Of a stretch of 64,000 nucleotides of DNA, positions 33,501 through 55,356 are shown piece after piece. The stretch lies in sequence record OP617741.1; one strand, given 5' to 3'. Every line of letters starts with the position of its first letter. The stretch's first letter is position 1. The DNA comes from Klebsiella phage KP13-16. Below the pieces are notes generated by a model. The model saw nothing but the letters and a program-made list of their open reading frames with translations, ran no database searches and was not told the origin of the DNA. Position numbers and translations under genes: made by a program.

Positions 33501-33512
33501 TTTTAATCTCCA

Positions 33513-34022: not shown

Positions 34023-34044
34023 AAGTCCTCCTTATATTTTAAAA

Positions 34045-34075: not shown

Positions 34076-34086
34076 AATATAAAATT

Positions 34087-35163: not shown

Positions 35164-35173
35164 AATTTAATCC

Positions 35174-36052: not shown

Positions 36053-36065
36053 TTTAATCCCCTCC

Positions 36066-36095
36066 TAATAAAAGGTGGGCATCGGCCCACCTAAC
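36066..36095 (-). terminator. hairpin terminator/attenuator (GGTGGGC-atcg-GCCCACC)
   Basis: Perfect 7-bp stem. A U-run and then the RBS AGGAGG of the next gene follow. Confidence 0.5.
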
Positions 36096-36109
36096 AGTTT
36101 AAAATGATC

Positions 36110-36691: not shown

Positions 36692-36711
36692 AATATTTTC
36701 TCCTGTTTTCG

Positions 36712-36747
36712 AGATTAAAAAGTGGCACTATCTCCAATAGTGCCTTT
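36712..36747 (-). terminator. hairpin terminator/attenuator (GGCACTAT-ctcca-ATAGTGCC)
   Basis: Perfect 8-bp stem between the two TerD genes; a U-run follows on the transcript. Confidence 0.5.
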
Positions 36748-36753
36748 AACTAA

Positions 36754-37335: not shown

Positions 37336-37402
37336 ATTTATTTCCTCTCTTAGTTATTCAGTTTAAATATTATATTCAAAGTAAAATTTAAAGTCAACTC
37401 TT

Positions 37403-38116: not shown

Positions 38117-38136
38117 ATTAGTGTTTCTCCTCTAAA

Positions 38137-38469
38137 TTAACAAATAAAGCCTGTTACAACTACATAATCAATATCTAAAGATTTTACATCTAAGATATCT
38201 TGATAGTCAATCTTATTTTTAAGATATTTTCCTACTTCACTATCCTGCACACCATATTTACTATACTCTTCCTTGTCAGCCCAAGTAGTCTCACCGTATA
38301 GCTTATAGTACCACCGTGTACAATTGTCAAGAATTTCTTCATTCTCTTCTGCATTAATATAGTGTCCATGAATGACGCTCAGATTTTTGATCTCTTCAGA
38401 ATCAGAAGTTTCAAGAACAAAAAGATCTGTTGTTTCTGGAATATTTTCATAGATAATTAAAAACTTCAT
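38137..38469 (-). CDS. hypothetical protein
   Basis: 110 aa, acidic. Confidence 0.45.
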   Translation of the reverse strand: MKFLIIYENIPETTDLFVLETSDSEEIKNLSVIHGHYINAEENEEILDNCTRWYYKLYGETTWADKEEYSKYGVQDSEVGKYLKNKIDYQDILDVKSLDIDYVVVTGFIC

Positions 38470-38481
38470 TTCTCTTCCTTT

Positions 38482-38883
38482 TTAATCACAAGAACTTGAT
38501 GAACTAGAGTCACAACTCCCACTACTATAGCTTCCACCATCATCACTACTAGAATATGAACTCTGAATAATTGCATTATGCACGTAGGTATCATCAATGT
38601 CAACAGTTTTACTTGAAGAAATGTTCCTTACAGAATTTGCTATGGTACTTTTAACTCTTTGAGTTTCTATAAGATGCTTTTTCATAGCAGAGGGATCTGG
38701 AATTTTAGTCTGATAGACACCTCCTAAACACTCAGTCTTTTTCACAGTAGATTGTGAGACATTGATCTTATTTCCACTACCAAAGCTTACTACAGAAGCA
38801 CTGGAATTACTAGATTTAAAAAGAGATTTAAACCAAGTGAAAAATTTCTTAATCATGGTCTTTTCCTTTGTAAACATTACCAA
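38482..38883 (-). CDS. hypothetical Ser-rich protein
   Basis: 133 aa with an amphipathic N-terminus and a C-terminal poly-Ser/Cys/Asp tract. Confidence 0.4.
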   Translation of the reverse strand: MVMFTKEKTMIKKFFTWFKSLFKSSNSSASVVSFGSGNKINVSQSTVKKTECLGGVYQTKIPDPSAMKKHLIETQRVKSTIANSVRNISSSKTVDIDDTYVHNAIIQSSYSSSDDGGSYSSGSCDSSSSSSCD

Positions 38884-39118
38884 GATAAATGAGATTATCT
38901 TTTTTAATATGATCTGTCAACTCTTCTGGTGAAAAATTATAAGCATACCCTACACCACAAAGATAAACTGCATTGATCCCAACTTCTTTTACAAAAAGAT
39001 AGTGATCTGGAGCTGAAAGGAGTCTTCGTTGATTTGGCACTAACCAACAACCATCACCTTTACCTGTAAAGACATCACCAACTTCAAAAACATATTGTTC
39101 AACAATCTTCATCTTCAA
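38849..39118 (-). CDS. hypothetical protein
   Basis: 89 aa. Confidence 0.4.
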   Translation of the reverse strand: MKMKIVEQYVFEVGDVFTGKGDGCWLVPNQRRLLSAPDHYLFVKEVGINAVYLCGVGYAYNFSPEELTDHIKKDNLIYLGNVYKGKDHD

Positions 39119-39302
39119 CCTCTTGACCTAATAATTGTTCATACCAATTGACATAATCTTTCGCCATTTCATATAAATTTTCCGCAGAGTTTTGCTCACT
39201 TTGTGAAAAATCTTCAATTGACTCTGCGTTGCCAATTGCATCAAGACATTGACGAAAATCACCTTCTGTATTTCTAAATTGGCAATAGCTCATGTTGGGC
39301 AT
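39099..39302 (-). CDS. hypothetical protein
   Basis: 67 aa, acidic. Confidence 0.4.
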   Translation of the reverse strand: MPNMSYCQFRNTEGDFRQCLDAIGNAESIEDFSQSEQNSAENLYEMAKDYVNWYEQLLGQEVEDEDC

Positions 39303-39348
39303 TTAACTCTCCTTTTAACCGTATCTAAAAAGCTTGTACGAATCATAG

Positions 39349-40599
39349 TTAATCCTCACACTTTAAAAGAAATTTATTATTAATAACTTTAAAATGAATC
39401 GTTTGATTATTCACTTTATTAATACTTTTATATACATCGCCTTCGGCAATCTTATGTTTGATTGAGGAATGGTCTGCTGATTTCAATGCATCTTGAATAG
39501 AATGATACTCATCAAAGAAGTATACGATATCTCCTTGTGGGACAGTTGTCAACCCGAGAGTTGCACAAAATTCTAAGAAATCACTATCATCCAGAAAACA
39601 TTTGTTATCAATGTCCCATACACGAAAAGCATAAAACTGATGTTCTTCCAACTCTTCACGATTCCCTTGAATACCAGGACCCATACACTCACCTTGAATA
39701 GCAAGTTGACGATTATGCTGTACACAATAATCTTTAAGACGTGCAGGAATATCATCTTTTAATGCTGCTTTCCAAAAATGTGACTCTGGATCAAATTTTA
39801 GTGCCAGATTACGGGAACAAACAGAAATTTGACCATCTTCCCATTGGAAAGGATAAGGCTTCACTTCTACAATATCAAGTTCTCCAGTCTCTGCATTCCA
39901 TTCACGTACCTCATCATCCACTTTTTCAACATAGAATTCAGGATTACTCATAAAAGCAATAGTTTGACTAGAACCATCTAACTTAAGTGATTTACGAAAA
40001 CCAACACCTTTCATCGTTTGGGAATACTTACCAAAAACATTTTGAATACGCTCTTCGTCTGTTTTTGGGATGACAATGGGAAAGTTTCCAGCAGATTTAC
40101 AGTTTTGCAACCCTGTGCCACCATTGCGTTCATCTGGTCTTTCGTATTTTGTTACGTTAAGAAACTCTTCAAGTCCATGACGAGATTCTTCTAGCTCCTC
40201 TAATAATTCTGCCATTGCAGTTTCTACTGAAATAGGATCATCATTATCTTGCCAGATAACAGTTAATAATTCATTCCAGAATGATGAAACTGGGAGTGCC
40301 AAACCTTGTGAAACAACGCCACGAAGTTTTTTAGTCCGAAGCCGAAAACGTTCAACATTTTTATCATCCACTTTGCAGGAACTTCCTGCTAAAAATGCAA
40401 ATTGTTTTGTTTGCACTGGGACGAAAGAATCAATTTCGAAGAAGACACAATAATCTCCGATTTGAAATTCTCCTTTCTTTACTACTACGTCCCAACCATC
40501 TACTGTAGCTTTTACAATAAGATCAGCACCTTCAATAGCTTCAATGTTGTTAATCTTACGGATAGTAACTAAACGACGACCTTCAGTAACTAAATTCAT
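39349..40599 (-). CDS. putative ATP-dependent RNA/DNA ligase (KxDG nucleotidyltransferase)
   Basis: A KLDGSS motif sits mid-protein after an N-terminal beta-rich domain. The architecture resembles DraRnl/Rnl5-type RNA ligases. 416 aa. Confidence 0.4.
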   Translation of the reverse strand: MNLVTEGRRLVTIRKINNIEAIEGADLIVKATVDGWDVVVKKGEFQIGDYCVFFEIDSFVPVQTKQFAFLAGSSCKVDDKNVERFRLRTKKLRGVVSQGLALPVSSFWNELLTVIWQDNDDPISVETAMAELLEELEESRHGLEEFLNVTKYERPDERNGGTGLQNCKSAGNFPIVIPKTDEERIQNVFGKYSQTMKGVGFRKSLKLDGSSQTIAFMSNPEFYVEKVDDEVREWNAETGELDIVEVKPYPFQWEDGQISVCSRNLALKFDPESHFWKAALKDDIPARLKDYCVQHNRQLAIQGECMGPGIQGNREELEEHQFYAFRVWDIDNKCFLDDSDFLEFCATLGLTTVPQGDIVYFFDEYHSIQDALKSADHSSIKHKIAEGDVYKSINKVNNQTIHFKVINNKFLLKCED

Positions 40600-40640
40600 T
40601 TCAACCCCTCATTTTAAATGTGTTTCTCTCAACAAGACAA

Positions 40641-40672
40641 ACTATAAAGCTTGTCTTAGTAAAAGTCAACAT
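40641..40672 (-). promoter_or_regulatory. candidate sigma70-like promoter for the ligase operon (TTGACT-18-TATAGT)
   Basis: Read on the minus strand upstream of 40599. It overlaps a 7-bp hairpin (aagacaa...ttgtctt). Confidence 0.3.
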
Positions 40673-41037
40673 TATTCTACTACAGGAACTTCAAAATTAA
40701 CTTCTACATCTTTTTCTTCATCCCAGAAGAACAACGACCATGTTCTAGGAACATCTACTTTAGCATTGGGCGATGTCCAGAATTCAACAAATGTGACGTT
40801 TTCCACTTGACCATCCATGCTTGAAGCAAAAACCATTTCTAAACGTTTCACAGGTATGACTTCACCTGCACCTGTTCCACAACAGGCAACAATTCCTTTT
40901 GGAAGAACCAGATCAGGAACTTTTAGGATTTGAATATTAGCCCCAGGATATCTTTTCTGAAGGAATGTTAAAGCATTTTCTTCATCTAGACTCCAAGCAT
41001 ATTCTTCCATTTCATCAAAAATATCATTCATATTCAA
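40672..41037 (-). CDS. hypothetical protein
   Basis: 121 aa. Confidence 0.45.
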   Translation of the reverse strand: MNMNDIFDEMEEYAWSLDEENALTFLQKRYPGANIQILKVPDLVLPKGIVACCGTGAGEVIPVKRLEMVFASSMDGQVENVTFVEFWTSPNAKVDVPRTWSLFFWDEEKDVEVNFEVPVVE

Positions 41038-41075
41038 GCTTCCTTTTTAAACTAAAGCCCCTTTCGGGGCTAATC

Positions 41076-42053
41076 TCAAGCTTCTTTTTTCTCAGGAAAA
41101 ACCAGACTTGCAATAATACCCAAGGCCAGAGTCCCAAGCACAATACAAAGACTCACATTTGCTGAGATATCATGTGGCAAGAAAGACCATTTTGCATTTA
41201 GTGTCTCACCAAAAGGATGGTAAATCAGTTTAGCACCTACAAACACTAGAACTACAGCAACGGCTTTTTCCAGATGAACCAAGTATTTAACTGCTACACT
41301 CAGTACAAAGAACAGTGCACGGAGACCAAGAATTGCAAATAACATTGCAGAGTAAACCAGCAGAGGTTCTTGCGTCACACCAATTACAGCCGGGACAGAG
41401 TCAAAGGAGAAAATTACATCAGTAAACTCCACTACAAAGACACACAACAAAGCCGGAGTTGCATACTTGATCCCGTTCTTAATGGTGATAAATTTCTCGC
41501 CATCTAGAGCCGGATGAACAGGAAGAATCTTACCAACCAGACGAGTCGCCCAGTGTTTAGAGTAATCAACTTCATCTTCCTCATCATCACCGCCTTTGAT
41601 AATAGCCAGTGCAGACCATGCTACAATCAGACCGAACAGCACTTGGAAAAACCAGTGTAAATTAAAGATTGCCGTACCTGCTGCCACAAAGATACCTCGA
41701 AATACAATGGCACCAGCAATACCCCAAAGAAGAATCTTATGCTGTAAGTGTGTTGATTTGATCCCGAAGCTAGCGAATATTGCCATGAACACCATCAAGT
41801 TATCCACAGACAATGATTTTTCTAGCACATACCCACTCAGAAACAAAGAGGCAAATTCTTTGCCATACTCTACCCAAATAAAACCATAGTATGCAAATGC
41901 TAATGCGATCCAAAATGCAGACCAAGCCAATGCAGACTTAATACCGATCTCTTTATTTTCCTTGTGTCCAAAGAAATCTACAAGGATTGATAGTGCAAGA
42001 ACTCCAACAAGAACTGCAATATCCAGAAGGGGGAACCCAAAATGATGTGTCAC
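41076..42053 (-). CDS. terC: TerC family integral membrane protein
   Basis: Multi-TM protein carrying LSVDNLMVFMAIF, which matches the TerC SxDN signature. 325 aa. Confidence 0.75.
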   Translation of the reverse strand: MTHHFGFPLLDIAVLVGVLALSILVDFFGHKENKEIGIKSALAWSAFWIALAFAYYGFIWVEYGKEFASLFLSGYVLEKSLSVDNLMVFMAIFASFGIKSTHLQHKILLWGIAGAIVFRGIFVAAGTAIFNLHWFFQVLFGLIVAWSALAIIKGGDDEEDEVDYSKHWATRLVGKILPVHPALDGEKFITIKNGIKYATPALLCVFVVEFTDVIFSFDSVPAVIGVTQEPLLVYSAMLFAILGLRALFFVLSVAVKYLVHLEKAVAVVLVFVGAKLIYHPFGETLNAKWSFLPHDISANVSLCIVLGTLALGIIASLVFPEKKEA

Positions 42054-44305: not shown

Positions 44306-44596
44306 CTAATAACAGAACCTTGCACCACAAGTAGTACATACCGCACCACCTCTATGAGCACTACCCACGTTCAGATGAATGCAATCGGCAGCACCGTACC
44401 AAAGGTCATTATTCTTTTTATATGCTTCAATAATGGCAGAATAGCCATCTATATAGTTTTCTTTGCCATCAGTAAGATCTATATACTGAAAGTAGTTTTC
44501 ACCGATACCACGCATCCAGTTAATAGCTTCTAAGATAGTTTCAAACTCTCTATATCTCTCAAAAGTATCCATTAACTGGTAGTTAACAATCACCAT
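44306..44596 (-). CDS. hypothetical protein
   Basis: 96 aa with C-terminal CTTCGARFCY cysteines. Confidence 0.45.
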   Translation of the reverse strand: MVIVNYQLMDTFERYREFETILEAINWMRGIGENYFQYIDLTDGKENYIDGYSAIIEAYKKNNDLWYGAADCIHLNVGSAHRGGAVCTTCGARFCY

Positions 44597-44600
44597 AAAA

Positions 44601-46721
44601 TTAAACCCTTATATGTTTTACACGTTGAACAACTTCCTGCATCTTCCCCTTGTTAAAAGGTCTACTGTTAGGTGCAGATAAGTAACCTGAGACTCTCCGA
44701 ATGACGTTGATCGTTCCTTCCTCAGTATTGCCACAATCAGGGCATTCAAAGCCTTCTGCTGTTGCTTTAAACTCTCCATGAAAGCCACACTTCAGACATT
44801 TATCAACAGGTTGATTAATCCCAAAGTAATGAATATTTTCATATCCATAGTCAATCAAAGCTTCCAAGCCTTTCATGTTATTTTTGAGATTTGGTGTCTC
44901 GACATAACCTATATTACCACCTGAACTGATAAAGTCAAACCCTGATTCAACATCCCATTTAGTAAAAGGATCAACTTGTTGGTCTACAGGAACATGGAAA
45001 GAGTTAGTCAAGTATTCTCTCTTGATAGTTCCAGGAAATTTCGCATTGATTTTACTGGCAAATTTATAACACAAAGACTCCGCTGGAGTTCCGTAGATAC
45101 CAAAACCAATACCTGTTTTCTTCTTATAAGCCTCTGCCATTTCTGACATAAGACTTAAAATCTTTTTCCCGTAAGCTTTATATTCCTCTAAACTACAATT
45201 TGGATAGAGAATTTGAATTGCTTCATATAACCCTACATAACCAAAACTTGCTGAAGCATAACCTTTGTAGAAAAGTTTGTCAATAGTTTCTTCAGGATCT
45301 AGTCTAGCTAATGCTCCTTCAACAAACATCACAGGATTTTGTTTTGCTTTAGTTCCCTTAAGGCGATTAATCCTCAACATATGTGCTTCATATGCTGTTT
45401 GCATATGCTTATAGAGTTCTTCCAGGAAAAGTTTACCACTACTGACAGAATCTTTAGCTATCATTGGTAAATTCAAAGAAACTACACCAAGATTAAATCT
45501 ACCATCATATTTCTCACCTTGTTCTGTAGCAAAATAAGAAAGGAAACTACGACATCCCATGCTAGTAACGTGACCTTTTGAAGATTTTGTAACCAGTTTA
45601 TTTCTAGGGACTGAAATAAAATCTGGGTAAATTCTTTCTGCACAACACTCCATTGCTAATTGTTTAAGGTCATAATTAGGATCACCAGGATTCATGTTGA
45701 CACCTTCTTCAAGGAAGAAAATTACTTTTGGGAACACAGGCGTTACTTTATCCTTACCTAAACCCTCTTTGTGGATTTTTAGATAGTTACGAGTAATCAT
45801 TCTACCAAATTCTGAGGTATCTAAACCAAGACTAATGGTGATAAATGGAGATTGTCCATTTACACTCATTAATGTGTTAACCTGGTAGATAAGAGTTTGC
45901 ATTGCATCGTAGACATCTTGCTCTGTAAGTTGCATTGCATTTATTTTGACTTCAGCACCAAATAAATTTCTAATAAGTTTTACATTTTTATTATAAGTCA
46001 GTTCTACATATTGCTTTAAACCTGTATCAATATGTGCGCAAGTTTGTCCACCATATTGGCTAGAGGCTACAGCCTGAATAATTTGTGTCAACACTGTAGT
46101 AGCAACACCAATTGATTTAGGTTTTTCAATGAAAGCATTTCCAATATGGAAACCATTTTCTAACATGTCTTGGTAATTAACGAGACAACAGTTGCTGAGA
46201 GGGCTGATTAGATAATCTAAGTCATGAATATGTCCAAAACCGCTTGTATGCCATTCTGAGAGGTCTTTAGGTAGTATTTGAGTCAATGCTACATGCTTAC
46301 TTAAAATCCCTGCTAAGAGGTCTCTATGAGTATTTACAACGTTACTGGGTTTGTTAGCATTCTCACGAGTAAATTCTTCTGCTGTTTGTTCTAAGAAGCC
46401 AGATATGTCATTATAAAGTTTCCCATTACCTTCACGGATTTTATCTCTGTCGTGCCTATACTCAATATAAGTTCTGGCTATGTCATATGTCTTTGGATTA
46501 GACATAAGGAAATCTTCAATCATTTTTTGAACATTTGAGACTGACTTATTCTCATTGAGATTTTTAACAATATATTCTGTAACCTCGTGAGCAACAAGTT
46601 CTGCTGTGATTGATAATGAAGAGTTAGCTAGTGCTGCTTGATATATTGCATTGTAAACTTTACGTTCATCAAATTGTTCTGTGCGCCCGTCGCGTTTTAT
46701 AATTTTATGTTGATACTGCAT
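44601..46721 (-). CDS. nrdD: anaerobic ribonucleoside-triphosphate reductase
   Basis: The ATP-cone is KIIKRDGRTEQF. The glycyl-radical loop is RVSGYL. The C-terminal Zn site is CLKCGF...CPDCGN. The start was moved to the ATG at 46721, which has a GGAGGA RBS. The listed 46748 start lies in a hairpin loop and has no RBS. Confidence 0.88.
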   Translation of the reverse strand: MQYQHKIIKRDGRTEQFDERKVYNAIYQAALANSSLSITAELVAHEVTEYIVKNLNENKSVSNVQKMIEDFLMSNPKTYDIARTYIEYRHDRDKIREGNGKLYNDISGFLEQTAEEFTRENANKPSNVVNTHRDLLAGILSKHVALTQILPKDLSEWHTSGFGHIHDLDYLISPLSNCCLVNYQDMLENGFHIGNAFIEKPKSIGVATTVLTQIIQAVASSQYGGQTCAHIDTGLKQYVELTYNKNVKLIRNLFGAEVKINAMQLTEQDVYDAMQTLIYQVNTLMSVNGQSPFITISLGLDTSEFGRMITRNYLKIHKEGLGKDKVTPVFPKVIFFLEEGVNMNPGDPNYDLKQLAMECCAERIYPDFISVPRNKLVTKSSKGHVTSMGCRSFLSYFATEQGEKYDGRFNLGVVSLNLPMIAKDSVSSGKLFLEELYKHMQTAYEAHMLRINRLKGTKAKQNPVMFVEGALARLDPEETIDKLFYKGYASASFGYVGLYEAIQILYPNCSLEEYKAYGKKILSLMSEMAEAYKKKTGIGFGIYGTPAESLCYKFASKINAKFPGTIKREYLTNSFHVPVDQQVDPFTKWDVESGFDFISSGGNIGYVETPNLKNNMKGLEALIDYGYENIHYFGINQPVDKCLKCGFHGEFKATAEGFECPDCGNTEEGTINVIRRVSGYLSAPNSRPFNKGKMQEVVQRVKHIRV

Positions 46722-46737
46722 TATTCCTCCAAAATAA

Positions 46738-46759
46738 GAAGCCAGCATTAACTGGCTTA
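46738..46759 (-). terminator. hairpin attenuator (AGCCAG-cattaa-CTGGCT) upstream of nrdD
   Basis: 6-bp stem. On the transcript it is followed by a U-rich tract and then the nrdD RBS. Confidence 0.35.
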
Positions 46760-46805: not shown

Positions 46806-47234
46806 TTAAATCAGATAAGTTTGAAGAATAGTCTTTGCTAATTGATTATCTACTGTTTTGCCAGCAGCTTTAGCAACCATGTTAATTTTACCCATGAAAC
46901 TCATAGTGATTTTATCACCATTCTGTACCGCAGTATCCAAGAAATCACGAATCTCTTCTTCACTCAACTGTGCAGGAAGATAACTTTCCATAAAAGCAAT
47001 TTCTTCTTCATACTGTTTCAGTTGTGCTTCATGACCTTCAAGACTTGCACGAGTAGATTTTACAGTAGACTTAATCAAGGCAATAGCATCTTCATCAGTT
47101 GAATTTTTATCTTGTGACAATTTTCCTAAAAGAAAGGTTAGAGTAGCAACCTTTTCTTTATCACCGGATTTACGAAAAGCAAGTTGGTCTTGTTTCATTT
47201 TCTCAATAATCATTAATATTCTCCTATTCCACAA
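46806..47234 (-). CDS. hypothetical protein
   Basis: 142 aa, helical. Confidence 0.45.
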   Translation of the reverse strand: MWNRRILMIIEKMKQDQLAFRKSGDKEKVATLTFLLGKLSQDKNSTDEDAIALIKSTVKSTRASLEGHEAQLKQYEEEIAFMESYLPAQLSEEEIRDFLDTAVQNGDKITMSFMGKINMVAKAAGKTVDNQLAKTILQTYLI

Positions 47235-47845
47235 TAAAGAGTTTCTCTTGTATTATTTAAATCTTCAGAAACTCTATTAATTTCTTTTTGTAAGATATCC
47301 TTATACTGAGGATATTTTTCTATCAAAGTTAAACCTTGATTTATATACAACATTTGCCAAGCTCTATGTGCTTCAACAGGATCTGTGAAACCATGTATGG
47401 CAATATCATGAAACCTAGCCCTATATCGAGGTACTTTCTGATATTTATTTTTCTGTTCAGAAACTCCCAATGGTAAATTATTTTTAGAGTATCTTTTTAT
47501 AATATAATTATTTAAATCTTTACCTACAAAACCACAGGTGCTTGGAGAGTATATTTTACTAACCCCAGATAAGAGATCCTTGTCCAGTTCCTTTCCTTCC
47601 CAATCTTGGGTTTCCATCCAGGCACGAAAATTACCAAATGTCAACCATTCTTCACAAACACTACAACCTTTATAAGTAGGAAATCTTCTTTGGTAATTTT
47701 CACTATAACAACGCCTTAGCATATTCGTCCAACGATCATAATATGGATCTCGCCAAAATACAACTTCTTTACCATTCATACGTTTACTTTTTTGAGTTAT
47801 ATCTTCTAGATCATTGTATCCCTTACCAAAAAGTAATTTATTCAT
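47213..47845 (-). CDS. AP2-domain / homing-endonuclease-like protein (paralog A)
   Basis: The N-terminal motif is WTNMLRRCY...YKGCSVCEEW. The C-terminus is AP2-like (RYRARF...HGFTDPVEAHRAW). Paralogous to 52239..52901. Confidence 0.45.
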   Translation of the reverse strand: MNKLLFGKGYNDLEDITQKSKRMNGKEVVFWRDPYYDRWTNMLRRCYSENYQRRFPTYKGCSVCEEWLTFGNFRAWMETQDWEGKELDKDLLSGVSKIYSPSTCGFVGKDLNNYIIKRYSKNNLPLGVSEQKNKYQKVPRYRARFHDIAIHGFTDPVEAHRAWQMLYINQGLTLIEKYPQYKDILQKEINRVSEDLNNTRETLYCGIGEY

Positions 47846-49134
47846 TACAATTCTATCTCAAGTAAGTAATCAAGTCTAACTTGACTCAGGTCAAAGACTA
47901 CAATCTCATCATTTCTCACCCCAGAGTATCCAGCCTTAGCCCAATAAGATTGGTATCCTTTTGGAGGGCGTTGACTTGTTGGTCCTGTTGGGGTATAAGC
48001 ATTTCCAACAGCCACTGAAACTAGAAACATGTAAACTTTTCCATTCCCCTGACCACCACCCGTATAATACATGTTATCACAATATTGGAGACTTTTTGAA
48101 GATTGATTTGCGAAATACAATCCTGTTGAGAACATGGCCCCTGCCTTAACACCAGGACTATCTTTAGGCATCATTAACCCTTTACAGAAAATAGATAACA
48201 AATTAGCTACACGTGTTCCGTGCCACAGTTCATGAACATTACCATACTCTGTGATAGCTTTATCAAATGGTGCTTGCTGATTTCCAAGATTAATTTTATA
48301 GATATTCTTAACTTTAGAACCCATGATGCGACCGCCGTGTTGGGCATTTTTACTTTCATTGTAGTAATTAACAATACGATCAATTGTAGCAGAATCTTCA
48401 ACATGAGAGATACCAAAATTAAAGATTTTTTCTACTTCAACTTCTTCTTTAGGTTTATCTTCCTGATTCTTTTTAAGTTCTTCAATAAGGTCTAATGTTT
48501 CCAGAAGTGCTTTACAGATTTCACGTTGTTCGTCAATGTTTTTGTGACTAAACAGCAAGTGACGTTTATCACGTGTAGTTGCAACTTTATTAGGAATAAG
48601 AACAAAATAAGAATCATTTAAAGTTAAGATCTCATCTTCACCTTTACCACTCTTTTCATATTCATCCAAAAGGGATTCAATATTACCAAGATGGATCATT
48701 GCTTCTTCCACAGCAGCTTTCTTTACAACTCCTAAAGGAGTCTTAAACAGACCATCTTTTTCATCATATTTAATGTTAGTAGAACTGGTGATATTATGGA
48801 TGTTTGCTTTAGCAATTGCTTGAATAAGATTACGACTTGTGTCGTCTTTACAATCAATTTGCTTAAGTGCAATGTCTACTACGTTAACTTTTTGAGTCAA
48901 CCCAGTTTCACCAGAGACAGCTTCTAGTTGTGCTTCTTTATAACCTTTCTTGATTTTAGATGCAACAAGACTGTCAAACTTCTTTTTACCACCAGAGTAG
49001 GAGGTAGTTTGAACCCCGCCACCTACCCGACCAAAACGAACTGCAATATTTCCAACGTCATCTAAGGTTGCTTCATAGAATTTATTGTTATTATTCTTTG
49101 AATCAAACATGATTAGCATTTTACTCTCAGACAT
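47845..49134 (-). CDS. WGR-domain poly(ADP-ribose) polymerase (PARP) catalytic homolog
   Basis: N-terminal WGR-like domain (YEATLDDVGNIAVRFGRVGGG...KGYKE). The C-terminus carries LWHGT and GAMFSTGLYFA. It continues through FLVSVAVGN to RNDEIVVFDLSQVRLDYLLEI. Together these give the PARP H-G-S/T, Y and E motifs (H-Y-E triad). Confidence 0.85.
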   Translation of the reverse strand: MSESKMLIMFDSKNNNNKFYEATLDDVGNIAVRFGRVGGGVQTTSYSGGKKKFDSLVASKIKKGYKEAQLEAVSGETGLTQKVNVVDIALKQIDCKDDTSRNLIQAIAKANIHNITSSTNIKYDEKDGLFKTPLGVVKKAAVEEAMIHLGNIESLLDEYEKSGKGEDEILTLNDSYFVLIPNKVATTRDKRHLLFSHKNIDEQREICKALLETLDLIEELKKNQEDKPKEEVEVEKIFNFGISHVEDSATIDRIVNYYNESKNAQHGGRIMGSKVKNIYKINLGNQQAPFDKAITEYGNVHELWHGTRVANLLSIFCKGLMMPKDSPGVKAGAMFSTGLYFANQSSKSLQYCDNMYYTGGGQGNGKVYMFLVSVAVGNAYTPTGPTSQRPPKGYQSYWAKAGYSGVRNDEIVVFDLSQVRLDYLLEIEL

Positions 49135-49154
49135 TTCACCCCCTGTTAAGTGAA

Positions 49155-49176
49155 TAAAAGGGCTTTCGCCCTTAAA
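49155..49176 (-). terminator. hairpin (AAGGGC-tttc-GCCCTT) overlapping the upstream stop, before the PARP RBS
   Basis: Perfect 6-bp stem, followed by a GGGGGTG RBS and the PARP ATG. Confidence 0.35.
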
Positions 49177-49609
49177 GTTTTTCGAGAAGTTTCAACACAG
49201 CTTCTTTATCAAGAACAGTTGAACCGAGGAGTGCTTCAACCTCTTCAATTTGGAATACATCTCCAAGTTGGTGGGTATTGACTGGAGGACGGATCTTATC
49301 TTTGTGGTTCAGAAAAAGATCTTCTTCAAATCCATCTCGAACATATTTCCCTTTCAAATCTGTAATTTCAACAAGCTTAATCAACTTATGAAGTTTTTCA
49401 ACACGAAACTCAGGTGCTACTTTAGCTTCAACTTCTTCACGGAGGTCATCCAAAGAGCTTCGAACAGTATCAAGTTTCTCATAAACTTCTTCAAAGAAGC
49501 TAGAATCTAAAATATATTCCATATCTTTAAGAAACTCTTTGGGAGAGTTTTCAGCATACTCTTTAAGATCTTCAAACCAATCATTAATTTTATCAAACAG
49601 TGGATTCAT
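49172..49609 (-). CDS. hypothetical protein
   Basis: 145 aa, acidic and helical. Confidence 0.45.
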   Translation of the reverse strand: MNPLFDKINDWFEDLKEYAENSPKEFLKDMEYILDSSFFEEVYEKLDTVRSSLDDLREEVEAKVAPEFRVEKLHKLIKLVEITDLKGKYVRDGFEEDLFLNHKDKIRPPVNTHQLGDVFQIEEVEALLGSTVLDKEAVLKLLEKL

Positions 49610-51714: not shown

Positions 51715-52230
51715 TTATTTGATCACAGTGGCATTTTCAGGGATTTCAGCTTCATCAAGTACATAGATGGTAACATTGTACCCGGCTTCACACAATGTCT
51801 TTTTGATAATATCTTCAACAGAAGACCACTCTGCTCCTCCAAGACCTGCACCAAGTTTGGGAAGTCCAATTTTAAGATCCTGATTTTCAAAAAGCATTAG
51901 CTGTTTAGACATAGCTTTGAAAGAAGATTCAAGCTTATCTAAATCTGTATTTGGTTTTCCATCCTCACGTTTCCACCAACCCCACCGTCCGTATAAATTA
52001 TAAATACTTAAATTATACAATGGAGAATGGGCATATGAGAAATCTCCAAATTTTTTAGGGTCTCCTTTAATAGTTGAATCATCTGCAATAGCGACTTCCG
52101 GGAAAGCTTTATCTAAAAGTGGGGCAATCCCACGTTTACGTGCATTAAAACAGTTACATTGTTGTGCAATAACATTTACTTCTCCACTTTTTGCAGCCAA
52201 TAACAAATCCATCACTTTATATTTCAACAT
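51715..52230 (-). CDS. macro domain protein (ADP-ribose binding/hydrolase)
   Basis: VNVIAQQCNCFNARKRGIAPLL corresponds to the macro VNAAN...GGGV motif. LKIGLPKLGAGLGGAEW corresponds to the second macro motif hhFPxIGxGxxG. 171 aa. Confidence 0.65.
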   Translation of the reverse strand: MLKYKVMDLLLAAKSGEVNVIAQQCNCFNARKRGIAPLLDKAFPEVAIADDSTIKGDPKKFGDFSYAHSPLYNLSIYNLYGRWGWWKREDGKPNTDLDKLESSFKAMSKQLMLFENQDLKIGLPKLGAGLGGAEWSSVEDIIKKTLCEAGYNVTIYVLDEAEIPENATVIK

Positions 52231-52238
52231 ATTACCCC

Positions 52239-52901
52239 CTATAATTTTAATGTCTCTCTATTTAAACTTATATCTTCTTTTATATCTTGGATCCTATCAA
52301 GTAAGGCAGTTTCAACAACCTTATTAAAGTGTGCAGATTCTTTATATTTTTGTAAGCTTTCCTTGATTGCAATAATTTTATAATCTTGCCACTGTTTATG
52401 AGCAAGGTCTGGTGAGTTATGATAACCTAGATAAACAATCTTACCAGATACATGACAATAAGCTTGGAACCTATCCCTATGATGAGGCTTTTTCTTCTTT
52501 TTAAGACTTACCCCTAGTGGGAGGTGTCCTCTTGCAGATCTACTATCTGTTAATAGGCAGTTAATATAGTTCGGAACCATAACGCAAGTCTCTTTACTAT
52601 AAAGCTTATTACCTTTAATTAATATATCCTTATCAATGCATAAATTATCAAAATCCTTAGATATGGCCCAAGCTTTAAAATTTGAAAAGTATTTCCACTC
52701 TTCACTTACAGTACAACCTTCATAGACAAAATAATATGGATCTTTTTGTTTTAAATTATAACATCTTCTAAGAATGTCTTTCCATCGGCTATATATCGGA
52801 CAGAGCCAAATTTGCTTCCATTTACCATCTTCAAATCTATTTATAGAGACAGGGTCTACACTATCATTAATGCCATAGTTATGTACAAGTTTTTGTTTCA
52901 A
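52239..52901 (-). CDS. AP2-domain / homing-endonuclease-like protein (paralog B)
   Basis: WKDILRRCY...YEGCTVSEEW, with a C-terminal AP2-like segment (HRDRFQAY...LGYHNSPDLAHKQW). Paralogous to 47213..47845. Confidence 0.45.
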   Translation of the reverse strand: MKQKLVHNYGINDSVDPVSINRFEDGKWKQIWLCPIYSRWKDILRRCYNLKQKDPYYFVYEGCTVSEEWKYFSNFKAWAISKDFDNLCIDKDILIKGNKLYSKETCVMVPNYINCLLTDSRSARGHLPLGVSLKKKKKPHHRDRFQAYCHVSGKIVYLGYHNSPDLAHKQWQDYKIIAIKESLQKYKESAHFNKVVETALLDRIQDIKEDISLNRETLKL

Positions 52902-53299: not shown

Positions 53300-53532
53300 G
53301 GTGCCTCTTCTAATTGGGAATGGGAGATGCCCATCATATCTGCCAGATCGTCTTTTGTCAACAATTTTCTTTCAAACAAATTTGTAACCAGCAAAACAAA
53401 CATCTCACCTACGTTATTATTAGATTGCTCTAATAGTAACTGCTCAAGGTTAAAAGTTTTAGTATCACTATAATCCTCATTCGTAAGGAAGAAATGCTTT
53501 TGTTGTGGGTTTAGCATAGGTCTTTTCCTCAA
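53293..53532 (-). CDS. hypothetical protein
   Basis: 79 aa; it overlaps neighbouring genes. Confidence 0.3.
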   Translation of the reverse strand: MRKRPMLNPQQKHFFLTNEDYSDTKTFNLEQLLLEQSNNNVGEMFVLLVTNLFERKLLTKDDLADMMGISHSQLEEAPW

Positions 53533-53758
53533 ATCTCAGTTCGCCGTTAAGTTTTTCAATTCTATGTGGGAGAACATCCTGGCCCCACCAAGGCTTTTCA
53601 TGAATACGATAACTCCAGACTGTCATGAAAGAGTCTTCTTCAGTGCCTTCTCCTTTGATTCTAACAGTCTTATTATAGATATCCCGGATAGTAGCTTCTA
53701 TCCCATCTACTAAGACAATCTCATGAATTCTGTAAGGCATCTGGTATTCATTAGTCAC
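53477..53758 (-). CDS. hypothetical protein
   Basis: GTG start at 53758 with GGAG 7 nt upstream. It overlaps the NadR stop as GTGA (translational coupling). The listed longer start would overlap NadR by 58 nt. Confidence 0.35.
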   Translation of the reverse strand: MTNEYQMPYRIHEIVLVDGIEATIRDIYNKTVRIKGEGTEEDSFMTVWSYRIHEKPWWGQDVLPHRIEKLNGELRFEEKTYAKPTTKAFLPYE

Positions 53759-55356
53759 AAATATGCTCCAAGAATATGTTCTGAATAAACCTCTTCTAGA
53801 AAATCTTCCCAAAATTCCTTATCTACTGAAGAAGGATAATGAGAGTTTTCTGCTAAAATTTCAACTTCCTGTACAACCTTCTCAAGTTCTTCCTGAACCT
53901 CATTGAAAGGCATGTTACCAGTCTTAACAGATAAAATCAAGGGATTTTGTTCCATAGGATAAACAAGATCACCATGCTTATAAATGTTAATAAGTTGATA
54001 TCCACCACGAAGAGCGTGGCTCAGAGCTTTCCAATCCACACCTTGATTAGCCTCAGCCAAACGTGCTCTATCGCCATATTCTTCCCACAGTTTAAATAAA
54101 GACGTCTTCATTTCTTTTACTGAGACTGTTTGTTGAAACTTTCTTCCAAGAACTTCATAAAAGATTTGATTTACACCATTTTTATCCGTAGCAAAGATCC
54201 AATATGCAAACTCATTGAGTGGAAAATATTCTTTGAAATCACCAACCTTTTTAGAATCATCTATTGTTTTAATACATTCTACAACTTCACGTAATGCTGC
54301 AAGCCTGGAGCCTTTAATTCCATACTTAGATGCTTGTTTCCTTACATAACCAAAAAGCCCTGTCAGCTTTTTAGTATAAAAACGGTGACGATTGTCACGA
54401 ATATATTGCCACGTTTCAGAATTGGTTACGAGCTTACTATCTGTATCTTGCAAACGGAGAGGATCAGCCACCCACTCAACTTCTGGGGAAAGGTATAGCA
54501 CCATGTCGTAGAAGTTATGAGCTTCTTCAACAGCCAACGACATAAACATACCATCATTGTAGCTCACTTTACCAGCACAAATTGCAGAAAAATGTGTTAT
54601 AAGATTGGTTGTATCTGAAATATGCACCACATGTGCCTGATTTGAGTTACTAAATTCCTCAATACGGTGGATCATAGCAATCTTAAGATATGCTTCACGA
54701 TCCATTAAAAATTCACTGCCATTGTACATCTGTTCGCAAATATGCCGCCCTACTTCGGGTGTTGATGTTGTTCCATAGTGCTGTGCTAGAAGCTCAGTCA
54801 TAGTGGATTTGCCAGTGCTCTCAACACCAATGATAGCTACACGTTTTACAAAACGAGGACGAGCTTGATCTGAAAGATACTCGAAGTTATCACGTAGATT
54901 AGTACGAATACGTGTTGCAGAGATATCCACTCCTGTACGCTCTGCATCCAACACAACATGCTCCACCTCTGGGAAATGCTCAGAGAAGTACTCAGTATAC
55001 TCCGGCTCAGAAGAGAAAGCATGTGTCAACACTTCCCCTTCTGGGATTTTAGCACGAATCAACTCAGCATAAGCCTTACCACCTTCTGGATAACCAGGAA
55101 TATCAGACTCATCCACATAATCTACAATCACTTTGTGTTGTAACCCTGAGTCTTGAATTAAAGATTTAAGATCCAATAAACGCTGGGTTAAACCTAGACG
55201 GTCTTGCATCCAAGGTGTTTGAGTGTCGTTAAACTTCTGGTCAAACGACAGAAACAGGTATAGCCGATCAATACCTGAATCTACAGCCATACGAATGAAG
55301 TTGACGTGTCCTGCTGTCAGGGGTGCAAATTTACCTAAAATTAAGCCTACGTTCAT
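53755..55356 (-). CDS. NadR-like bifunctional NMN adenylyltransferase / ribosylnicotinamide kinase
   Basis: The N-terminal GKFAPLTAGH matches the GxFxPxHxGH NMNAT motif. The central Walker A segment IIGVESTGKST resembles the NadR RNK domain (GGESSGKS). 533 aa. RBS AAGGAG. Confidence 0.75.
   Translation of the reverse strand: MNVGLILGKFAPLTAGHVNFIRMAVDSGIDRLYLFLSFDQKFNDTQTPWMQDRLGLTQRLLDLKSLIQDSGLQHKVIVDYVDESDIPGYPEGGKAYAELIRAKIPEGEVLTHAFSSEPEYTEYFSEHFPEVEHVVLDAERTGVDISATRIRTNLRDNFEYLSDQARPRFVKRVAIIGVESTGKSTMTELLAQHYGTTSTPEVGRHICEQMYNGSEFLMDREAYLKIAMIHRIEEFSNSNQAHVVHISDTTNLITHFSAICAGKVSYNDGMFMSLAVEEAHNFYDMVLYLSPEVEWVADPLRLQDTDSKLVTNSETWQYIRDNRHRFYTKKLTGLFGYVRKQASKYGIKGSRLAALREVVECIKTIDDSKKVGDFKEYFPLNEFAYWIFATDKNGVNQIFYEVLGRKFQQTVSVKEMKTSLFKLWEEYGDRARLAEANQGVDWKALSHALRGGYQLINIYKHGDLVYPMEQNPLILSVKTGNMPFNEVQEELEKVVQEVEILAENSHYPSSVDKEFWEDFLEEVYSEHILGAYL

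What the first reader, a model, noticed from the sequence alone, without database searches (positions are those of the whole stretch)
47845..49134. Phage-encoded WGR-PARP homolog with intact H-Y-E catalytic triad
The C-terminal ~130 aa align motif-by-motif with the eukaryotic PARP catalytic domain. LWHGT supplies the His-Gly-Ser/Thr motif, GAMFSTGLYFA the Tyr, FLVSVAVGN the LLCEVALGN-like strand, and RNDEIVVFDLSQVRLDYLLEI the catalytic Glu in the YNEYIVYD position. An N-terminal WGR-like nucleic-acid-sensing domain precedes it. A PARP that keeps the glutamate, and so is potentially poly-ADP-ribosylating, inside a phage replication/nucleotide-metabolism operon is unusual. It could modify host or phage proteins or nucleic-acid ends, or form part of an anti-defence strategy.
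Basis: partly seen in the sequence, partly recalled or inferred. Interest (0 to 1): 0.85.

Follow-up and report, generated by a model that had tools for sequence, protein, structure and literature searches.

The report
Phage PARP enzyme, already annotated elsewhere
This Klebsiella-type phage really does encode a complete PARP-like ADP-ribose polymerase with all catalytic residues intact, but the same gene is already annotated in a sister phage and phage PARPs are on record, so what remains unknown is what it does during infection.

Summary
ORF 47845-49134 (-) encodes a 429-aa protein with WGR, PARP regulatory (helical) and PARP catalytic domains, all above Pfam thresholds. H305, Y340 and E410 align with PARP1 H862, Y896 and E988 and are invariant in 55 homologues. 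A confident AlphaFold model matches PARP1 WGR-HD-ART chains bound to DNA breaks.

The finding is not new. The 94%-identical orthologue in Klebsiella phage vB_KpM_FBKp34 is annotated as poly[ADP-ribose] polymerase with the same three domains. A PHROG family exists, and phage PARPs are described in papers from 2005, 2014, 2021 and 2022. They are rare: 16 of 50,697 phage records. I found no experimental study of one.

- The gene sits in an early sigma70-type operon with a TARG1/DarG-class macrodomain, downstream of a NadR NAD+ salvage gene.
- This macrodomain family recurs near PARP in 5 of 19 viral PARP lineages.
- The window's macrodomain has Arg at an essential Gln position, its only difference from FBKp34.
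- The closest characterised relative is fungal Pyl1, a proven PAR-forming enzyme; its Yarrowia orthologues are 54-57% identical.

The enzyme is most likely active and nucleic-acid-end-sensing. Its targets are unknown.

The parts
47845..49134 (-). PARP gene, 429 aa, with WGR, helical regulatory and ART catalytic domains.
   Evidence: ORF. Pfam domains. PHROG 23333 at 5e-52. 94.4% aa identity to FBKp34 QQV91759.1, annotated 'poly [ADP-ribose] polymerase'.
48928..49119 (-). WGR domain (aa 6-69). The eponymous motif reads F34-G35-R36.
   Evidence: PF05406 at 3.3e-7, 30.8 bits against a cut-off of 22. G35 and R36 are invariant and position 34 is Y, F or W in 54 of 55 homologues. Included in the full-length structural match to the PARP1 WGR-CAT chains.
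48454..48831 (-). Helical regulatory (HD / PARP_reg) domain, aa 102-227.
   Evidence: PF02877 at 2.2e-8, covering profile positions 9-125 of 135. Long helices at 98-117, 139-162, 166-179 and 197-225 in the model.
47848..48390 (-). ART catalytic domain (aa 249-429). H305 is at 48220-48222, Y340 at 48115-48117 and E410 at 47905-47907.
   Evidence: PF00644 at 3.6e-23. Alignment to PARP1. H305, G306, Y340, K347, S348, Y351 and E410 are invariant in 55 sequences.
49139..49144 (-). Ribosome-binding site AGGGGG, 4 nt before the ATG.
   Evidence: Read directly from the sequence.
49158..49173 (-). Small hairpin AAGGGC-GAAA-GCCCTT followed by TTATT, between the upstream gene's stop codon and the PARP RBS. 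Possibly a weak attenuator or an RNA-stability element.
   Evidence: Function not tested.
49172..49609 (-). Acidic 145-aa protein of unknown function. It is the conserved immediate upstream neighbour of the PARP in this phage subclade.
   Evidence: Homologues lie upstream of the PARP in FBKp34 (99%), 05F01 (37%), L122 (38%) and L003 (29%). No family hit. Only 12 database clusters, mostly on ~140-kb contigs and at least two on contigs that also carry the PARP.
51715..52230 (-). Macrodomain of 171 aa, SCO6735/Bt_1257 subclass of the TARG1/DarG class, co-transcribed with the PARP. It is a candidate ADP-ribose eraser or an orphan anti-DarT factor. It carries Arg82 (codon 51985-51987) where the subclass has an essential Gln.
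   Evidence: PDB matches 2afc/2fg1 at 1e-6, SCO6735 at 2e-4, DarG at 2.7e-3. NCBIfam DarG at 2e-6. PADLOC DarG at 3.2e-8. Q-to-R difference shown.
53333..53361 (-). Sigma70-type promoter TTGACA-17-TATGAT that drives the unit containing the macrodomain and the PARP.
   Evidence: An 11-of-12 match. It coincides with the promoter annotated in FBKp34.
46739..46758 (-). Terminator-like hairpin that ends the unit, after YqeY and before nrdD.
   Evidence: A terminator is annotated at the same place in FBKp34.
53755..55356 (-). A 533-aa ORF in the preceding transcription unit: NadR-type NMN adenylyltransferase / ribosylnicotinamide kinase (aa 1-308) fused to an RlaP-like nucleotidyltransferase. A possible NAD+ supply for the PARP.
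   Evidence: PDB 9x6f at 1.8e-50 and H. influenzae NadR 1lw7 at 1.3e-29. AAA_28 at 2.5e-15. phrog_3462 and phrog_388.

Best explanation
The gene encodes a catalytically competent PARP-family ADP-ribosyltransferase with the minimal 'DNA-damage PARP' architecture: WGR, helical regulatory domain and ART domain, as in PARP2, PARP3 and bacterial PARPs, without the zinc fingers or BRCT domain of PARP1.

It is transcribed early in infection from a host-type sigma70 promoter.

By analogy with PARP1-3, the WGR domain binds a nucleic-acid break or 5'-phosphorylated end. This relieves autoinhibition by the helical domain and opens the NAD+ pocket formed by H305, G306, Y340, S348, Y351 and E410. The enzyme then transfers ADP-ribose, probably as chains, onto itself and onto nearby proteins or nucleic-acid termini.

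NAD+ can be replenished by the phage's own NadR. The co-transcribed TARG1/DarG-class macrodomain could trim or reverse the modification.

Shown here: domain content, residue conservation, predicted fold, operon position and gene associations. Inferred: catalytic activity, chain formation, break-dependence, the link to the macrodomain, and the biological targets, which remain unknown. The gene is accessory. Among phages related to FBKp34 it is present only in this small group, which points to host takeover or counter-defence and not to core replication.
For: - Three Pfam domains above threshold.
- PARP1 alignment placing H, Y and E.
- H305, G306, Y340, K347, S348, Y351 and E410 invariant across 55 homologues down to 40% identity.
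- AlphaFold model with pLDDT 83 and pTM 0.70, whose best PDB matches are full-length PARP1 WGR-HD-ART chains on a DNA double-strand break (7s6h, 4dqy_C, 4opx_C; E 1e-25 to 1e-22, TM 0.62-0.66) and PARP2.
- Nearest characterised relative: orthologues of Yarrowia lipolytica Pyl1 are 54% identical over the WGR/N-terminal region and 57% over the C-terminal HD plus ART. Pyl1 forms PAR in vivo and in vitro and binds dsDNA (PMC12412787).
- The bacterial WGR-PARPs HaPARP and CdPARP are active, and HaPARP needs DNA (PMC8120803).
- Early operon: promoter and terminator coincide with the FBKp34 annotation.
- The macrodomain family recurs within 10 kb and nearly always on the same strand in 5 of 19 viral PARP lineages, and in L122, with a different Macro in 05F01. 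A rough binomial test against published macro frequencies gives P of about 0.001-0.008.
- NAD+ salvage genes lie next to the PARP in the window, L124 (NadR-PnuC-PARP adjacent) and L123.
- Only FBKp34 and 05F01 among 50,697 phage records carry this PARP lineage.
Against: - There are no biochemical data for any phage PARP in the searched literature.
- The H-Y-E triad does not guarantee chain synthesis; PARP3 is described only as a mono-ADP-ribosylating enzyme.
- The loop before E410 is about 27 residues shorter than in PARP1, although Pyl1 orthologues share the short loop.
- Pyl1 did not need added DNA, so break-dependence is uncertain.
- The macrodomain link is weak. Macro domains occur in about 40% of medium-sized and 56% of jumbo phages anyway. 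The same family is in 662 phage records against 16 with a PARP. The window's copy has Arg at a position where the Gln of SCO6735 is essential.
- No single partner gene is shared by all PARP phages.
Confidence: 0.7

Rival explanations
1. The enzyme works mainly on nucleic-acid ends, not on proteins. Like PARP3 and PARP2 in vitro, it would ADP-ribosylate 5'-phosphates at DNA nicks or ends, or RNA 5'-phosphates. This would cap phage or host nucleic-acid termini, for example against exonucleases or as part of an end-repair pathway, and the macrodomain would remove the cap.
For: - PARP1-3 ADP-ribosylate phosphorylated DNA ends in vitro, and for each enzyme's optimal substrate this can exceed automodification. 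TARG1 reverses the PARP3 mark, and modified ends are protected from phosphatase (PMC8385414).
- The linked macrodomain belongs to the SCO6735/DarG/TARG1 class, which acts on DNA-linked ADP-ribose.
- Neighbourhoods of viral PARPs are rich in end-processing genes: NAD+-dependent DNA ligase (27 loci in 3 lineages), RlaP (8 loci), CCA-adding enzyme (7 loci), and an RNA ligase in the window.
Against: - The nearest characterised homologue, Pyl1, PARylates proteins, namely itself and Ku70/80.
- The ligase association comes mostly from one jumbo-phage lineage.
- Ligases and RNA-repair genes are common in large phages regardless of PARP.
Confidence: 0.2
2. The PARP acts alone as a host-takeover protein modifier, the poly-ADP-ribose counterpart of T4 Alt/ModA/ModB. 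The macrodomain and NadR are unrelated counter-defence genes, an orphan anti-DarT2 factor and an anti-NAD+-depletion factor, that merely share the early region.
For: - Iyer et al. propose this role for phage PARPs (PMC7824862).
- The operon also holds an Srd-like anti-sigma / host-takeover gene.
- Orphan NADAR antitoxin-like enzymes are proven anti-DarT1 factors in phages (PMC11825919).
- The macrodomain matches the DarG model and is about 40 times more widespread than the PARP.
- NAD+ salvage is common in medium-sized and jumbo phages.
Against: - Same-strand proximity of this macrodomain family to the PARP in 5 of 19 lineages exceeds a simple random expectation.
- A WGR plus HD sensor module is hard to explain for an enzyme that is simply constitutive against host proteins.
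Confidence: 0.3
3. The PARP is a break-triggered NAD+ sink, for superinfection exclusion or host shut-off. Its important output would be NAD+ consumption and not the modification itself.
For: PARP1 hyperactivation depletes NAD+ in eukaryotic cells (general knowledge). NAD+ depletion is a common theme in phage-host conflict (PMC9503650).
Against: - The phage itself encodes NadR for NAD+ synthesis, and relatives place the PARP next to NAD+ uptake or salvage genes. This argues for feeding the enzyme, not for draining the cell.
- No match to any defence-system model.
Confidence: 0.05
4. The protein is an inactive, non-enzymatic relic or a nucleic-acid-binding decoy.
For: None specific. It is an accessory gene that was horizontally acquired.
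Against: All NAD+-pocket residues are invariant across 55 homologues at 40-94% identity, and the protein is conserved over its full length.
Confidence: 0.03

Closest known systems
Klebsiella phage vB_KpM_FBKp34 gp111 (QQV91759.1), annotated 'poly [ADP-ribose] polymerase'; also Klebsiella phage 05F01 gene_103
   Same: 94.4% (FBKp34) and 77.9% (05F01) amino-acid identity over the full length. The FBKp34 note lists the same three domains. The operon has the same order and the same annotated promoter and terminator.
   Different: The window has an HNH endonuclease abutting the PARP stop codon where FBKp34 has an unrelated 155-aa ORF. The macrodomain differs by one residue (Arg against Gln at position 82). 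The NadR-RlaP region is one ORF here and three in FBKp34.
Yarrowia lipolytica Pyl1 and related fungal PARPs (Kickxellomycotina, Hesseltinella, Trichomonascus)
   Same: Colinear WGR, HD and ART. Identity is 54% (aa 1-153) and 57% (aa 169-429) to Yarrowia sp. orthologues. The short loop before the catalytic Glu is the same, and so is the H-Y-E triad. Pyl1 is an experimentally proven PAR-forming enzyme that binds dsDNA. In an NJ tree the fungal clade is sister to the window's clade.
   Different: The Yarrowia proteins carry a low-complexity or coiled-coil insert of about 165 aa inside the helical domain. They are eukaryotic nuclear proteins linked to telomere maintenance and Ku. The tree has no bootstrap and no canonical eukaryotic outgroup.
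Bacterial PARPs (Herpetosiphon aurantiacus HaPARP, Clostridioides difficile CD160 CdPARP)
   Same: WGR-(HD)-ART architecture and an intact H-Y-E triad. Both are active in vitro, and HaPARP is DNA-dependent and inhibitor-sensitive (PMC8120803, PMC4245714).
   Different: Those systems have a cognate PARG that reverses the modification. No PARG-family hit was found among about 40 window proteins scanned. No bacterial genome homologue exceeds 40% identity, and none is from Enterobacterales.
Human PARP2, PARP3 and PARP1
   Same: The same WGR-HD-ART module. The best structural matches are PARP1 WGR-CAT chains on a DNA break and PARP2. The NAD+-pocket residues are conserved.
   Different: About 20-23% identity. 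There are no zinc fingers or BRCT domain and no N-terminal extension. The WGR motif is F-G-R. The loop before the catalytic Glu is about 27 residues shorter than in PARP1.
Phage T4 Alt / ModA / ModB ADP-ribosyltransferases
   Same: Phage-encoded NAD+-dependent ARTs used early in infection to modify host macromolecules (PMC8120803, PMC7824862).
   Different: They belong to a different ART clade (R-S-E, not H-Y-E), are mono-ADP-ribosylating, and have no WGR or HD sensor module.

Membership tests
PARP catalytic family (Pfam PF00644; ARTD, H-Y-E clade) | Profile match above the curated threshold. | tested here: met
   82.5 bits against a cut-off of 26.7, E=3.6e-23.
PARP catalytic family (Pfam PF00644; ARTD, H-Y-E clade) | H-Y-E catalytic triad plus NAD+-pocket residues (Gly after the His, the Ser of SKS, and the second Tyr). 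| tested here: met
   H305, G306, Y340, K347, S348, Y351 and E410 align with PARP1 H862, G863, Y896, K903, S904, Y907 and E988. All are invariant in 55 homologues.
PARP catalytic family (Pfam PF00644; ARTD, H-Y-E clade) | ART fold. | tested here: met
   AlphaFold model with pLDDT 83. Foldseek E down to 4.5e-25 against PARP1 structures. The side-chain geometry of H, Y and E was not measured.
PARP catalytic family (Pfam PF00644; ARTD, H-Y-E clade) | NAD+-dependent ADP-ribosyl transfer, and chain elongation for 'poly' activity. | not testable with these tools
   Only indirect support: the Pyl1, HaPARP and CdPARP homologues make PAR.
DNA-damage-type PARPs (PARP1/2/3-like module) | WGR domain N-terminal to the catalytic region. 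| tested here: met
   PF05406 at 30.8 bits against a cut-off of 22. G35 and R36 are invariant. The WGR domain alone gives no PDB sequence hit, but it is covered by the full-length structural alignment.
DNA-damage-type PARPs (PARP1/2/3-like module) | Helical autoinhibitory (PARP_reg) domain between the WGR and ART domains. | tested here: met
   PF02877 at 34.7 bits against a cut-off of 26.8, covering profile positions 9-125 of 135.
DNA-damage-type PARPs (PARP1/2/3-like module) | Activation by DNA breaks. | not testable with these tools
   HaPARP needs DNA. Pyl1 did not need added DNA.
PARP1 orthologues | N-terminal zinc fingers and a BRCT domain. | tested here: not met
   The protein starts directly with the WGR domain at aa 6, and no other Pfam domain is found.
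Bacterial PARP-PARG systems | A cognate PARG encoded with the PARP. | tested here: not met
   No PARG-family hit among about 40 window proteins scanned with Pfam. The only ADP-ribose hydrolase found is a TARG1/DarG-class macrodomain. The rest of the phage genome lies outside the window and was not examined.
DarTG toxin-antitoxin / defence system (for the neighbouring macrodomain) | DarG-type macrodomain. | tested here: met
   PADLOC DarG at 3.2e-8 over model positions 1-145 of 329. NCBIfam DarG at 2e-6, well below its cut-off. PDB DarG 5m31 at 2.7e-3.
DarTG toxin-antitoxin / defence system (for the neighbouring macrodomain) | C-terminal DarT-binding domain and an adjacent DarT toxin. | tested here: not met
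   The protein is 171 aa and is a macrodomain only. No DarT hit in the operon. It therefore resembles an 'orphan' antitoxin-like enzyme.
SCO6735/Bt_1257 subclass of ALC1-like macrodomains | Essential Gln at the position of TARG1 K84 / DarG K80. | tested here: not met
   The window has Arg82 (CGG). FBKp34 and all 26 other PARP-linked homologues have Gln. Q85A and Q85E are inactive in SCO6735. The effect of Arg is unknown.
T4 Alt/Mod-type phage ARTs | R-S-E active-site signature. | tested here: not met
   The active site has the H-Y-E signature and the protein matches PF00644.
Known anti-phage defence systems (PADLOC) | Match of the PARP to any defence-system model. | tested here: not met
   Only a 13.7-bit WGR_XIII hit at E=0.0039.

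The most novel reading that the evidence does not exclude
The PARP, the co-transcribed SCO6735-type macrodomain, the conserved acidic 145-aa upstream protein and the upstream NadR together form a phage-borne, self-supplied and reversible ADP-ribosylation circuit. It would be switched on by nucleic-acid ends early in infection and would cap DNA or RNA termini, or modify end-binding host proteins.

Separately, this phage-type PARP lineage may be the horizontal source of the Pyl1-type PARPs of Yarrowia and early-diverging fungi.
Probability: 0.2. Interest if true: 0.65.

Novelty: already known. Interest (0 to 1): 0.33.

Why it matters
Whether poly-ADP-ribosylation has a real physiological role outside eukaryotes is still unsettled. 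[quoted passage not shown]

Most prokaryotic and viral PARPs sit in uncultured or hard-to-handle organisms. This lineage sits in a lytic phage of Klebsiella, with a cultured sister phage (FBKp34). Deletion mutants, infection time courses and ADP-ribose proteomics are therefore feasible.

The gene contexts gathered here (macrodomain, NadR/PnuC, NAD+ ligase, NADAR, and an uncharacterised conserved partner in other lineages) give concrete hypotheses to test.

The gene identification itself adds nothing new, because it is already in GenBank and in reviews.

Tried and rejected
1. WGR region alone (aa 1-120) against PDB sequences: no hit at E<=1. The domain call rests on Pfam and on the full-length fold match.
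2. Single-sequence AlphaFold model of the macrodomain: pLDDT 41, unusable, so no fold search was run. This used the second structure slot; an alignment should have been supplied.
3. PADLOC scan of ten operon proteins: the PARP belongs to no known defence system.
4. Literature searches for 'FBKp34', for experimental work on phage PARPs, and in a paper on a Klebsiella-infecting Stephanstirmvirinae genus ('Sichuanvirus'): nothing relevant.
5. A dedicated PARP-macrodomain two-gene system: rejected as obligate. The macro family is in 662 phage records against 16 with a PARP, and 14 of 19 PARP lineages lack it within 10 kb. It is retained only as a suggestive association.
6. NAD+-ligase and NADAR linkage: real, but largely confined to one jumbo-phage lineage.
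7. NAD+ salvage linkage: sporadic.
8. The widespread uncharacterised 'c5' partner: absent from the window in all six frames and from the window's clade. It has no Pfam or PDB identity.
9. Database search with the acidic 145-aa neighbour: only 12 clusters, mostly on ~140-kb contigs of what looks like the same phage group, so it is uninformative about function.
10. Search for other ADP-ribose enzymes (PARG, ARH, Nudix, a second ART) among about 40 window proteins: none found.
Full report
**Observation.** The ORF reported at 47845-49134 exists on the minus strand and encodes 429 aa. It starts at an ATG preceded by AGGGGG. Pfam finds three domains, all above their curated thresholds: WGR (aa 6-69, 3.3e-7), the PARP regulatory helical domain (aa 102-227, 2.2e-8) and the PARP catalytic domain (aa 249-399, 3.6e-23). 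The best sequence matches among solved structures are human PARP1 catalytic fragments (1e-17), then PARP3, PARP2, PARP4 and the tankyrases. G306, K347, S348 and Y351 fall on the other NAD+-pocket residues.

**Fold.** I aligned 55 homologues (40-94% identity). In that alignment H305, G306, Y340, K347, S348, Y351 and E410 are invariant, and the WGR motif is [Y/F/W]-G-R with G and R invariant. AlphaFold gave a confident model from this alignment (pLDDT 83.3, pTM 0.70). Its best Foldseek matches in the PDB are the PARP1 WGR-HD-ART chains crystallised on a DNA double-strand break (7s6h, 8g0h, 4opx_C, 4dqy_C; E 4.5e-25 to 1e-22; TM 0.62-0.66 over about 480 columns), followed by PARP2. I could not measure the side-chain geometry of the triad because model coordinates are not exposed.

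**Whose gene it is, and whether it is known.** The region is 95.7% identical over 88% of 7.5 kb to Klebsiella phage vB_KpM_FBKp34 (Stephanstirmvirinae). The orthologue there (94.4% aa) is already annotated 'poly [ADP-ribose] polymerase; contains WGR domain; PARP regulatory domain; PARP catalytic domain'. Klebsiella phage 05F01 has a 78% orthologue annotated 'ADP-ribosylation'. The protein belongs to PHROG 23333. Across 50,697 phage records only 16 have a detectable homologue: Klebsiella, Xanthomonas, Stenotrophomonas, Cellulophaga, one Bacillus phage and two uncultured jumbo phages. Several of these are annotated as PARP. Published notes on phage PARPs:
- Aeh1 in 2005 (PMC1266365).
- Aeh1 and Cellulophaga phi4:1, with the H-Y-E triad discussed, in 2014 (PMC4245714).
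- Jumbo phages in 2021 (PMC7824862).
- PART/PARP listed among the most frequent viral ART families in 2022 (PMC9503650).

I found no experimental study of any phage PARP. The finding as stated is therefore already known, although the function is not.

**Genomic setting.** An 11-of-12 sigma70-type promoter at 53361-53333 and a terminator-like hairpin at 46758-46739 coincide with the promoter and terminator annotated in FBKp34. Together they delimit one early-type unit with these genes in order:
1. a 127-aa ORF;
2. an HNH endonuclease;
3. a 171-aa macrodomain (51715-52230);
4. an Srd-like anti-sigma / HNH-like protein;
5. two small ORFs;
6. an acidic 145-aa ORF;
7. the PARP;
8. a second HNH endonuclease whose start overlaps the PARP stop;
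9. YqeY.

The anaerobic ribonucleotide reductase genes nrdD and nrdG follow after the terminator, so the PARP is not in the nucleotide-metabolism operon proper. The unit immediately upstream ends with a 533-aa ORF whose first 308 residues are a NadR-type NMN adenylyltransferase / ribosylnicotinamide kinase (PDB 9x6f at 1.8e-50, H. influenzae NadR at 1.3e-29). No PARG, ARH, Nudix or second ART was found among about 40 window proteins scanned.

**The macrodomain.** Its best matches are Bt_1257 (1e-6), SCO6735 (2e-4), the DarG macrodomain (2.7e-3) and TARG1 (0.015). It also matches NCBIfam DarG at 2e-6 and PADLOC DarG at 3.2e-8. The Pfam Macro hit is sub-threshold. SCO6735 removes ADP-ribose both from protein glutamates and from thymidine in DNA. 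Its Gln85, which occupies the position of TARG1 K84 and DarG K80, is essential (PMC9411070). All 26 other PARP-linked phage members of this family have Gln there. The window has Arg82 (CGG), while the FBKp34 orthologue has Gln (CAG). This is the only amino-acid difference between the two 171-aa proteins. The window's copy may therefore be altered or inactive, or the base may be an assembly variant.

**Wider distribution and gene associations.** Pattern-based scans found PARP relatives on 65 IMG/VR contigs, many of them jumbo. They also found relatives in 51 bacterial species genomes: Armatimonadota, Blastocatellia, mycobacteria and some plasmids. None is from Enterobacterales and none exceeds 40% identity. 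I clustered the ORFs within 10 kb of 67 viral PARPs, which fall into 19 lineages at 50% PARP identity. The results were:
- The window's macrodomain family is near the PARP in 27 loci from 5 lineages, nearly always on the same strand.
- An NAD+-dependent DNA ligase is near it in 27 loci from 3 lineages.
- NADAR is near it in 19 loci from 2 lineages.
- Metallophosphoesterases and a YspA/SLOG protein also recur.

Most of this signal comes from one jumbo-phage lineage with a fixed ligase-PARP-macro-NADAR block. Within the window's own clade:
- the same macro family lies 1.4 kb upstream of the PARP in L122 and 6 kb downstream in L004;
- 05F01 has a different Macro 5 kb upstream;
- L124 has NadR-like, PnuC and PARP adjacent on one strand;
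- L123 has NAD kinase, NadM and NAMPT within 10 kb.

Against published base rates (Macro in about 40% of medium-sized and 56% of jumbo phages), five of 19 lineages gives a rough binomial P of 0.001-0.008. This ignores the clustering of early genes. I treat the PARP-macro and PARP-NAD+ links as suggestive, not established. The acidic 145-aa ORF directly upstream of the PARP is conserved in that position in FBKp34, 05F01, L122 and L003. It has no family assignment, and its detectable homologues lie mostly on ~140-kb contigs, at least two of which also carry the PARP.

**Closest characterised relative.** The large-database search returned fungal proteins at 44-58% identity among the metagenomic hits: Yarrowia, Smittium, Coemansia, Dipsacomyces, Linderina, Hesseltinella and Trichomonascus. 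These are far closer than human PARPs. BLASTP against a Yarrowia sp. orthologue of Pyl1 gives 54% identity over aa 1-153 and 57% over aa 169-429. A fungal insert of about 165 aa lies within the helical domain, and the loop before the catalytic Glu is equally short in both. Y. lipolytica Pyl1 is experimentally a PAR-forming enzyme. PAR is lost in the deletion mutant and with an inhibitor. In vitro it shows auto-PARylation and PARylation of Ku70/80, it binds dsDNA, and its activity does not depend on added DNA (PMC12412787). In an NJ tree of 231 sequences the fungal proteins form one clade. That clade is sister to the 38-member clade containing the window, and both nest within phage and metagenome sequences. 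The tree has no bootstrap and no canonical eukaryotic outgroup. The Pyl1 paper does not mention horizontal transfer.

**Mechanism.** The best-supported reading is an active WGR-HD-ART enzyme made early in infection. By analogy with PARP1-3 and HaPARP, it would sense a nucleic-acid break or 5'-phosphate end, release helical-domain autoinhibition, and transfer ADP-ribose from NAD+ onto itself and other acceptors. The relationship to Pyl1 suggests that it forms chains. The targets are unknown. The main rivals are:
- action chiefly on DNA or RNA termini, which PARP1-3 do in vitro and TARG1-class macrodomains reverse (PMC8385414);
- a stand-alone host-takeover modifier, with the macrodomain and NadR being unrelated counter-defence genes, by analogy with orphan NADAR anti-DarT factors (PMC11825919).

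A role as an NAD+ sink is unlikely because the phage and its relatives pair the PARP with NAD+ synthesis or uptake genes. An inactive relic is unlikely given the invariant active-site residues.

**Verdict.** Novelty is low, because the gene is already annotated in a sister phage and phage PARPs are in the literature. Interest is moderate to low. The value lies in a tractable Klebsiella phage model for prokaryotic and viral PARylation, and in the contextual leads listed here.

Noticed in passing
window 47845-49134; proteins P0032, P0033, P0036, P0038, P0042-44, P0048, P0050, P0051, P0053, P0056, P0092: Fungal PARPs share 44-58% identity with this phage PARP and are colinear with it. They include orthologues of the proven PAR-forming Pyl1 from Yarrowia, plus Kickxellomycotina, Hesseltinella and Trichomonascus. 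In an NJ tree they form one clade that is sister to the window's clade and nested in a phage/metagenome radiation. This suggests horizontal transfer of a phage-type PARP into fungi. The Pyl1 paper says the protein lacks PARP_reg, but the alignment shows the helical domain split by an insert.
   Followed up: partly
L008-L027, L039-L066 (viral) and L072-L118 (bacterial), e.g. L111:11365-12051, L009:11337-11897, L063:15619-16125: An uncharacterised protein of about 150-250 aa lies downstream of the PARP on the same strand in 31 viral and 14 bacterial PARP loci. It is within 200 nt in 15 of 44 cases. Its N-terminal motif is FTAxD[IV]S...H.EVR...Y.R...YHP, and some members have a weak AbrB-like C-terminus. 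It has no Pfam or PDB identity. It is absent from the window and its clade. It is the most widespread PARP-linked gene I saw.
   Followed up: partly
window 51985-51987 (codon 82 of the macrodomain, 51715-52230 minus strand): The only amino-acid difference between this macrodomain and its FBKp34 orthologue is Arg (CGG) against Gln (CAG). It falls exactly at the position of the essential Gln85 of SCO6735 (TARG1 K84, DarG K80). All 26 other PARP-linked homologues have Gln.
   Followed up: yes
window 53755-55356 (minus strand): A single 533-aa ORF fuses a NadR-type NMNAT / ribosylnicotinamide kinase to an RlaP-like nucleotidyltransferase. FBKp34 annotates the same stretch as three ORFs, one of them called 'putative thioredoxin'.
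   Followed up: partly
window 47213-47845 and 52239-52901 (minus strand): Two paralogous HNH endonuclease genes (phrog_953) lie in the PARP operon. The start of one overlaps the PARP stop codon. FBKp34 has an unrelated 155-aa ORF at that site, so this looks like a mobile-element gain or replacement.
   Followed up: partly
L037-L066 (IMG/VR jumbo-phage lineage, 22 loci): A fixed gene block is conserved across one jumbo-phage lineage: NAD+-dependent DNA ligase, small membrane-like ORF, PARP, macrodomain, NADAR, 'c5' protein, metallophosphoesterase and YspA/SLOG. It forms an NAD+/ADP-ribose island.
   Followed up: partly
window 30575-42053 (minus strand): A Ter-type stress-response cluster is carried by the phage: PRTase_3 (30575-31399), TelA (34087-35163), two TerD genes (36110-36691 and 36754-37335), vWA-TerF-like (37403-38116) and TerC (41076-42053). 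An RNA ligase with a PHA02142 OB domain lies at 39349-40599.
   Followed up: no
window 44306-46748 against L001 4989-8006: The nrdD gene is 715 aa here and is followed by a separate 96-aa ORF (44306-44596). The FBKp34 nrdD CDS is 870 nt longer. This may reflect an insertion such as an intein or a homing element in one of the two phages. Not examined.
   Followed up: no
P0009 and P0127 (NCBI MAG 'Actinobacteria bacterium', 7,869-bp contig): A partial 'WGR domain-containing protein' 99% identical to the window PARP, and a homologue of the 145-aa neighbour, are deposited under an Actinobacteria MAG. This is most likely a contig of this phage group that was mis-binned.
   Followed up: no
window 49158-49173: A perfect 6-bp hairpin with a GAAA loop followed by TTATT lies between the stop codon of the 145-aa gene and the PARP ribosome-binding site. 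It could be a weak attenuator or an RNA-stability element.
   Followed up: no
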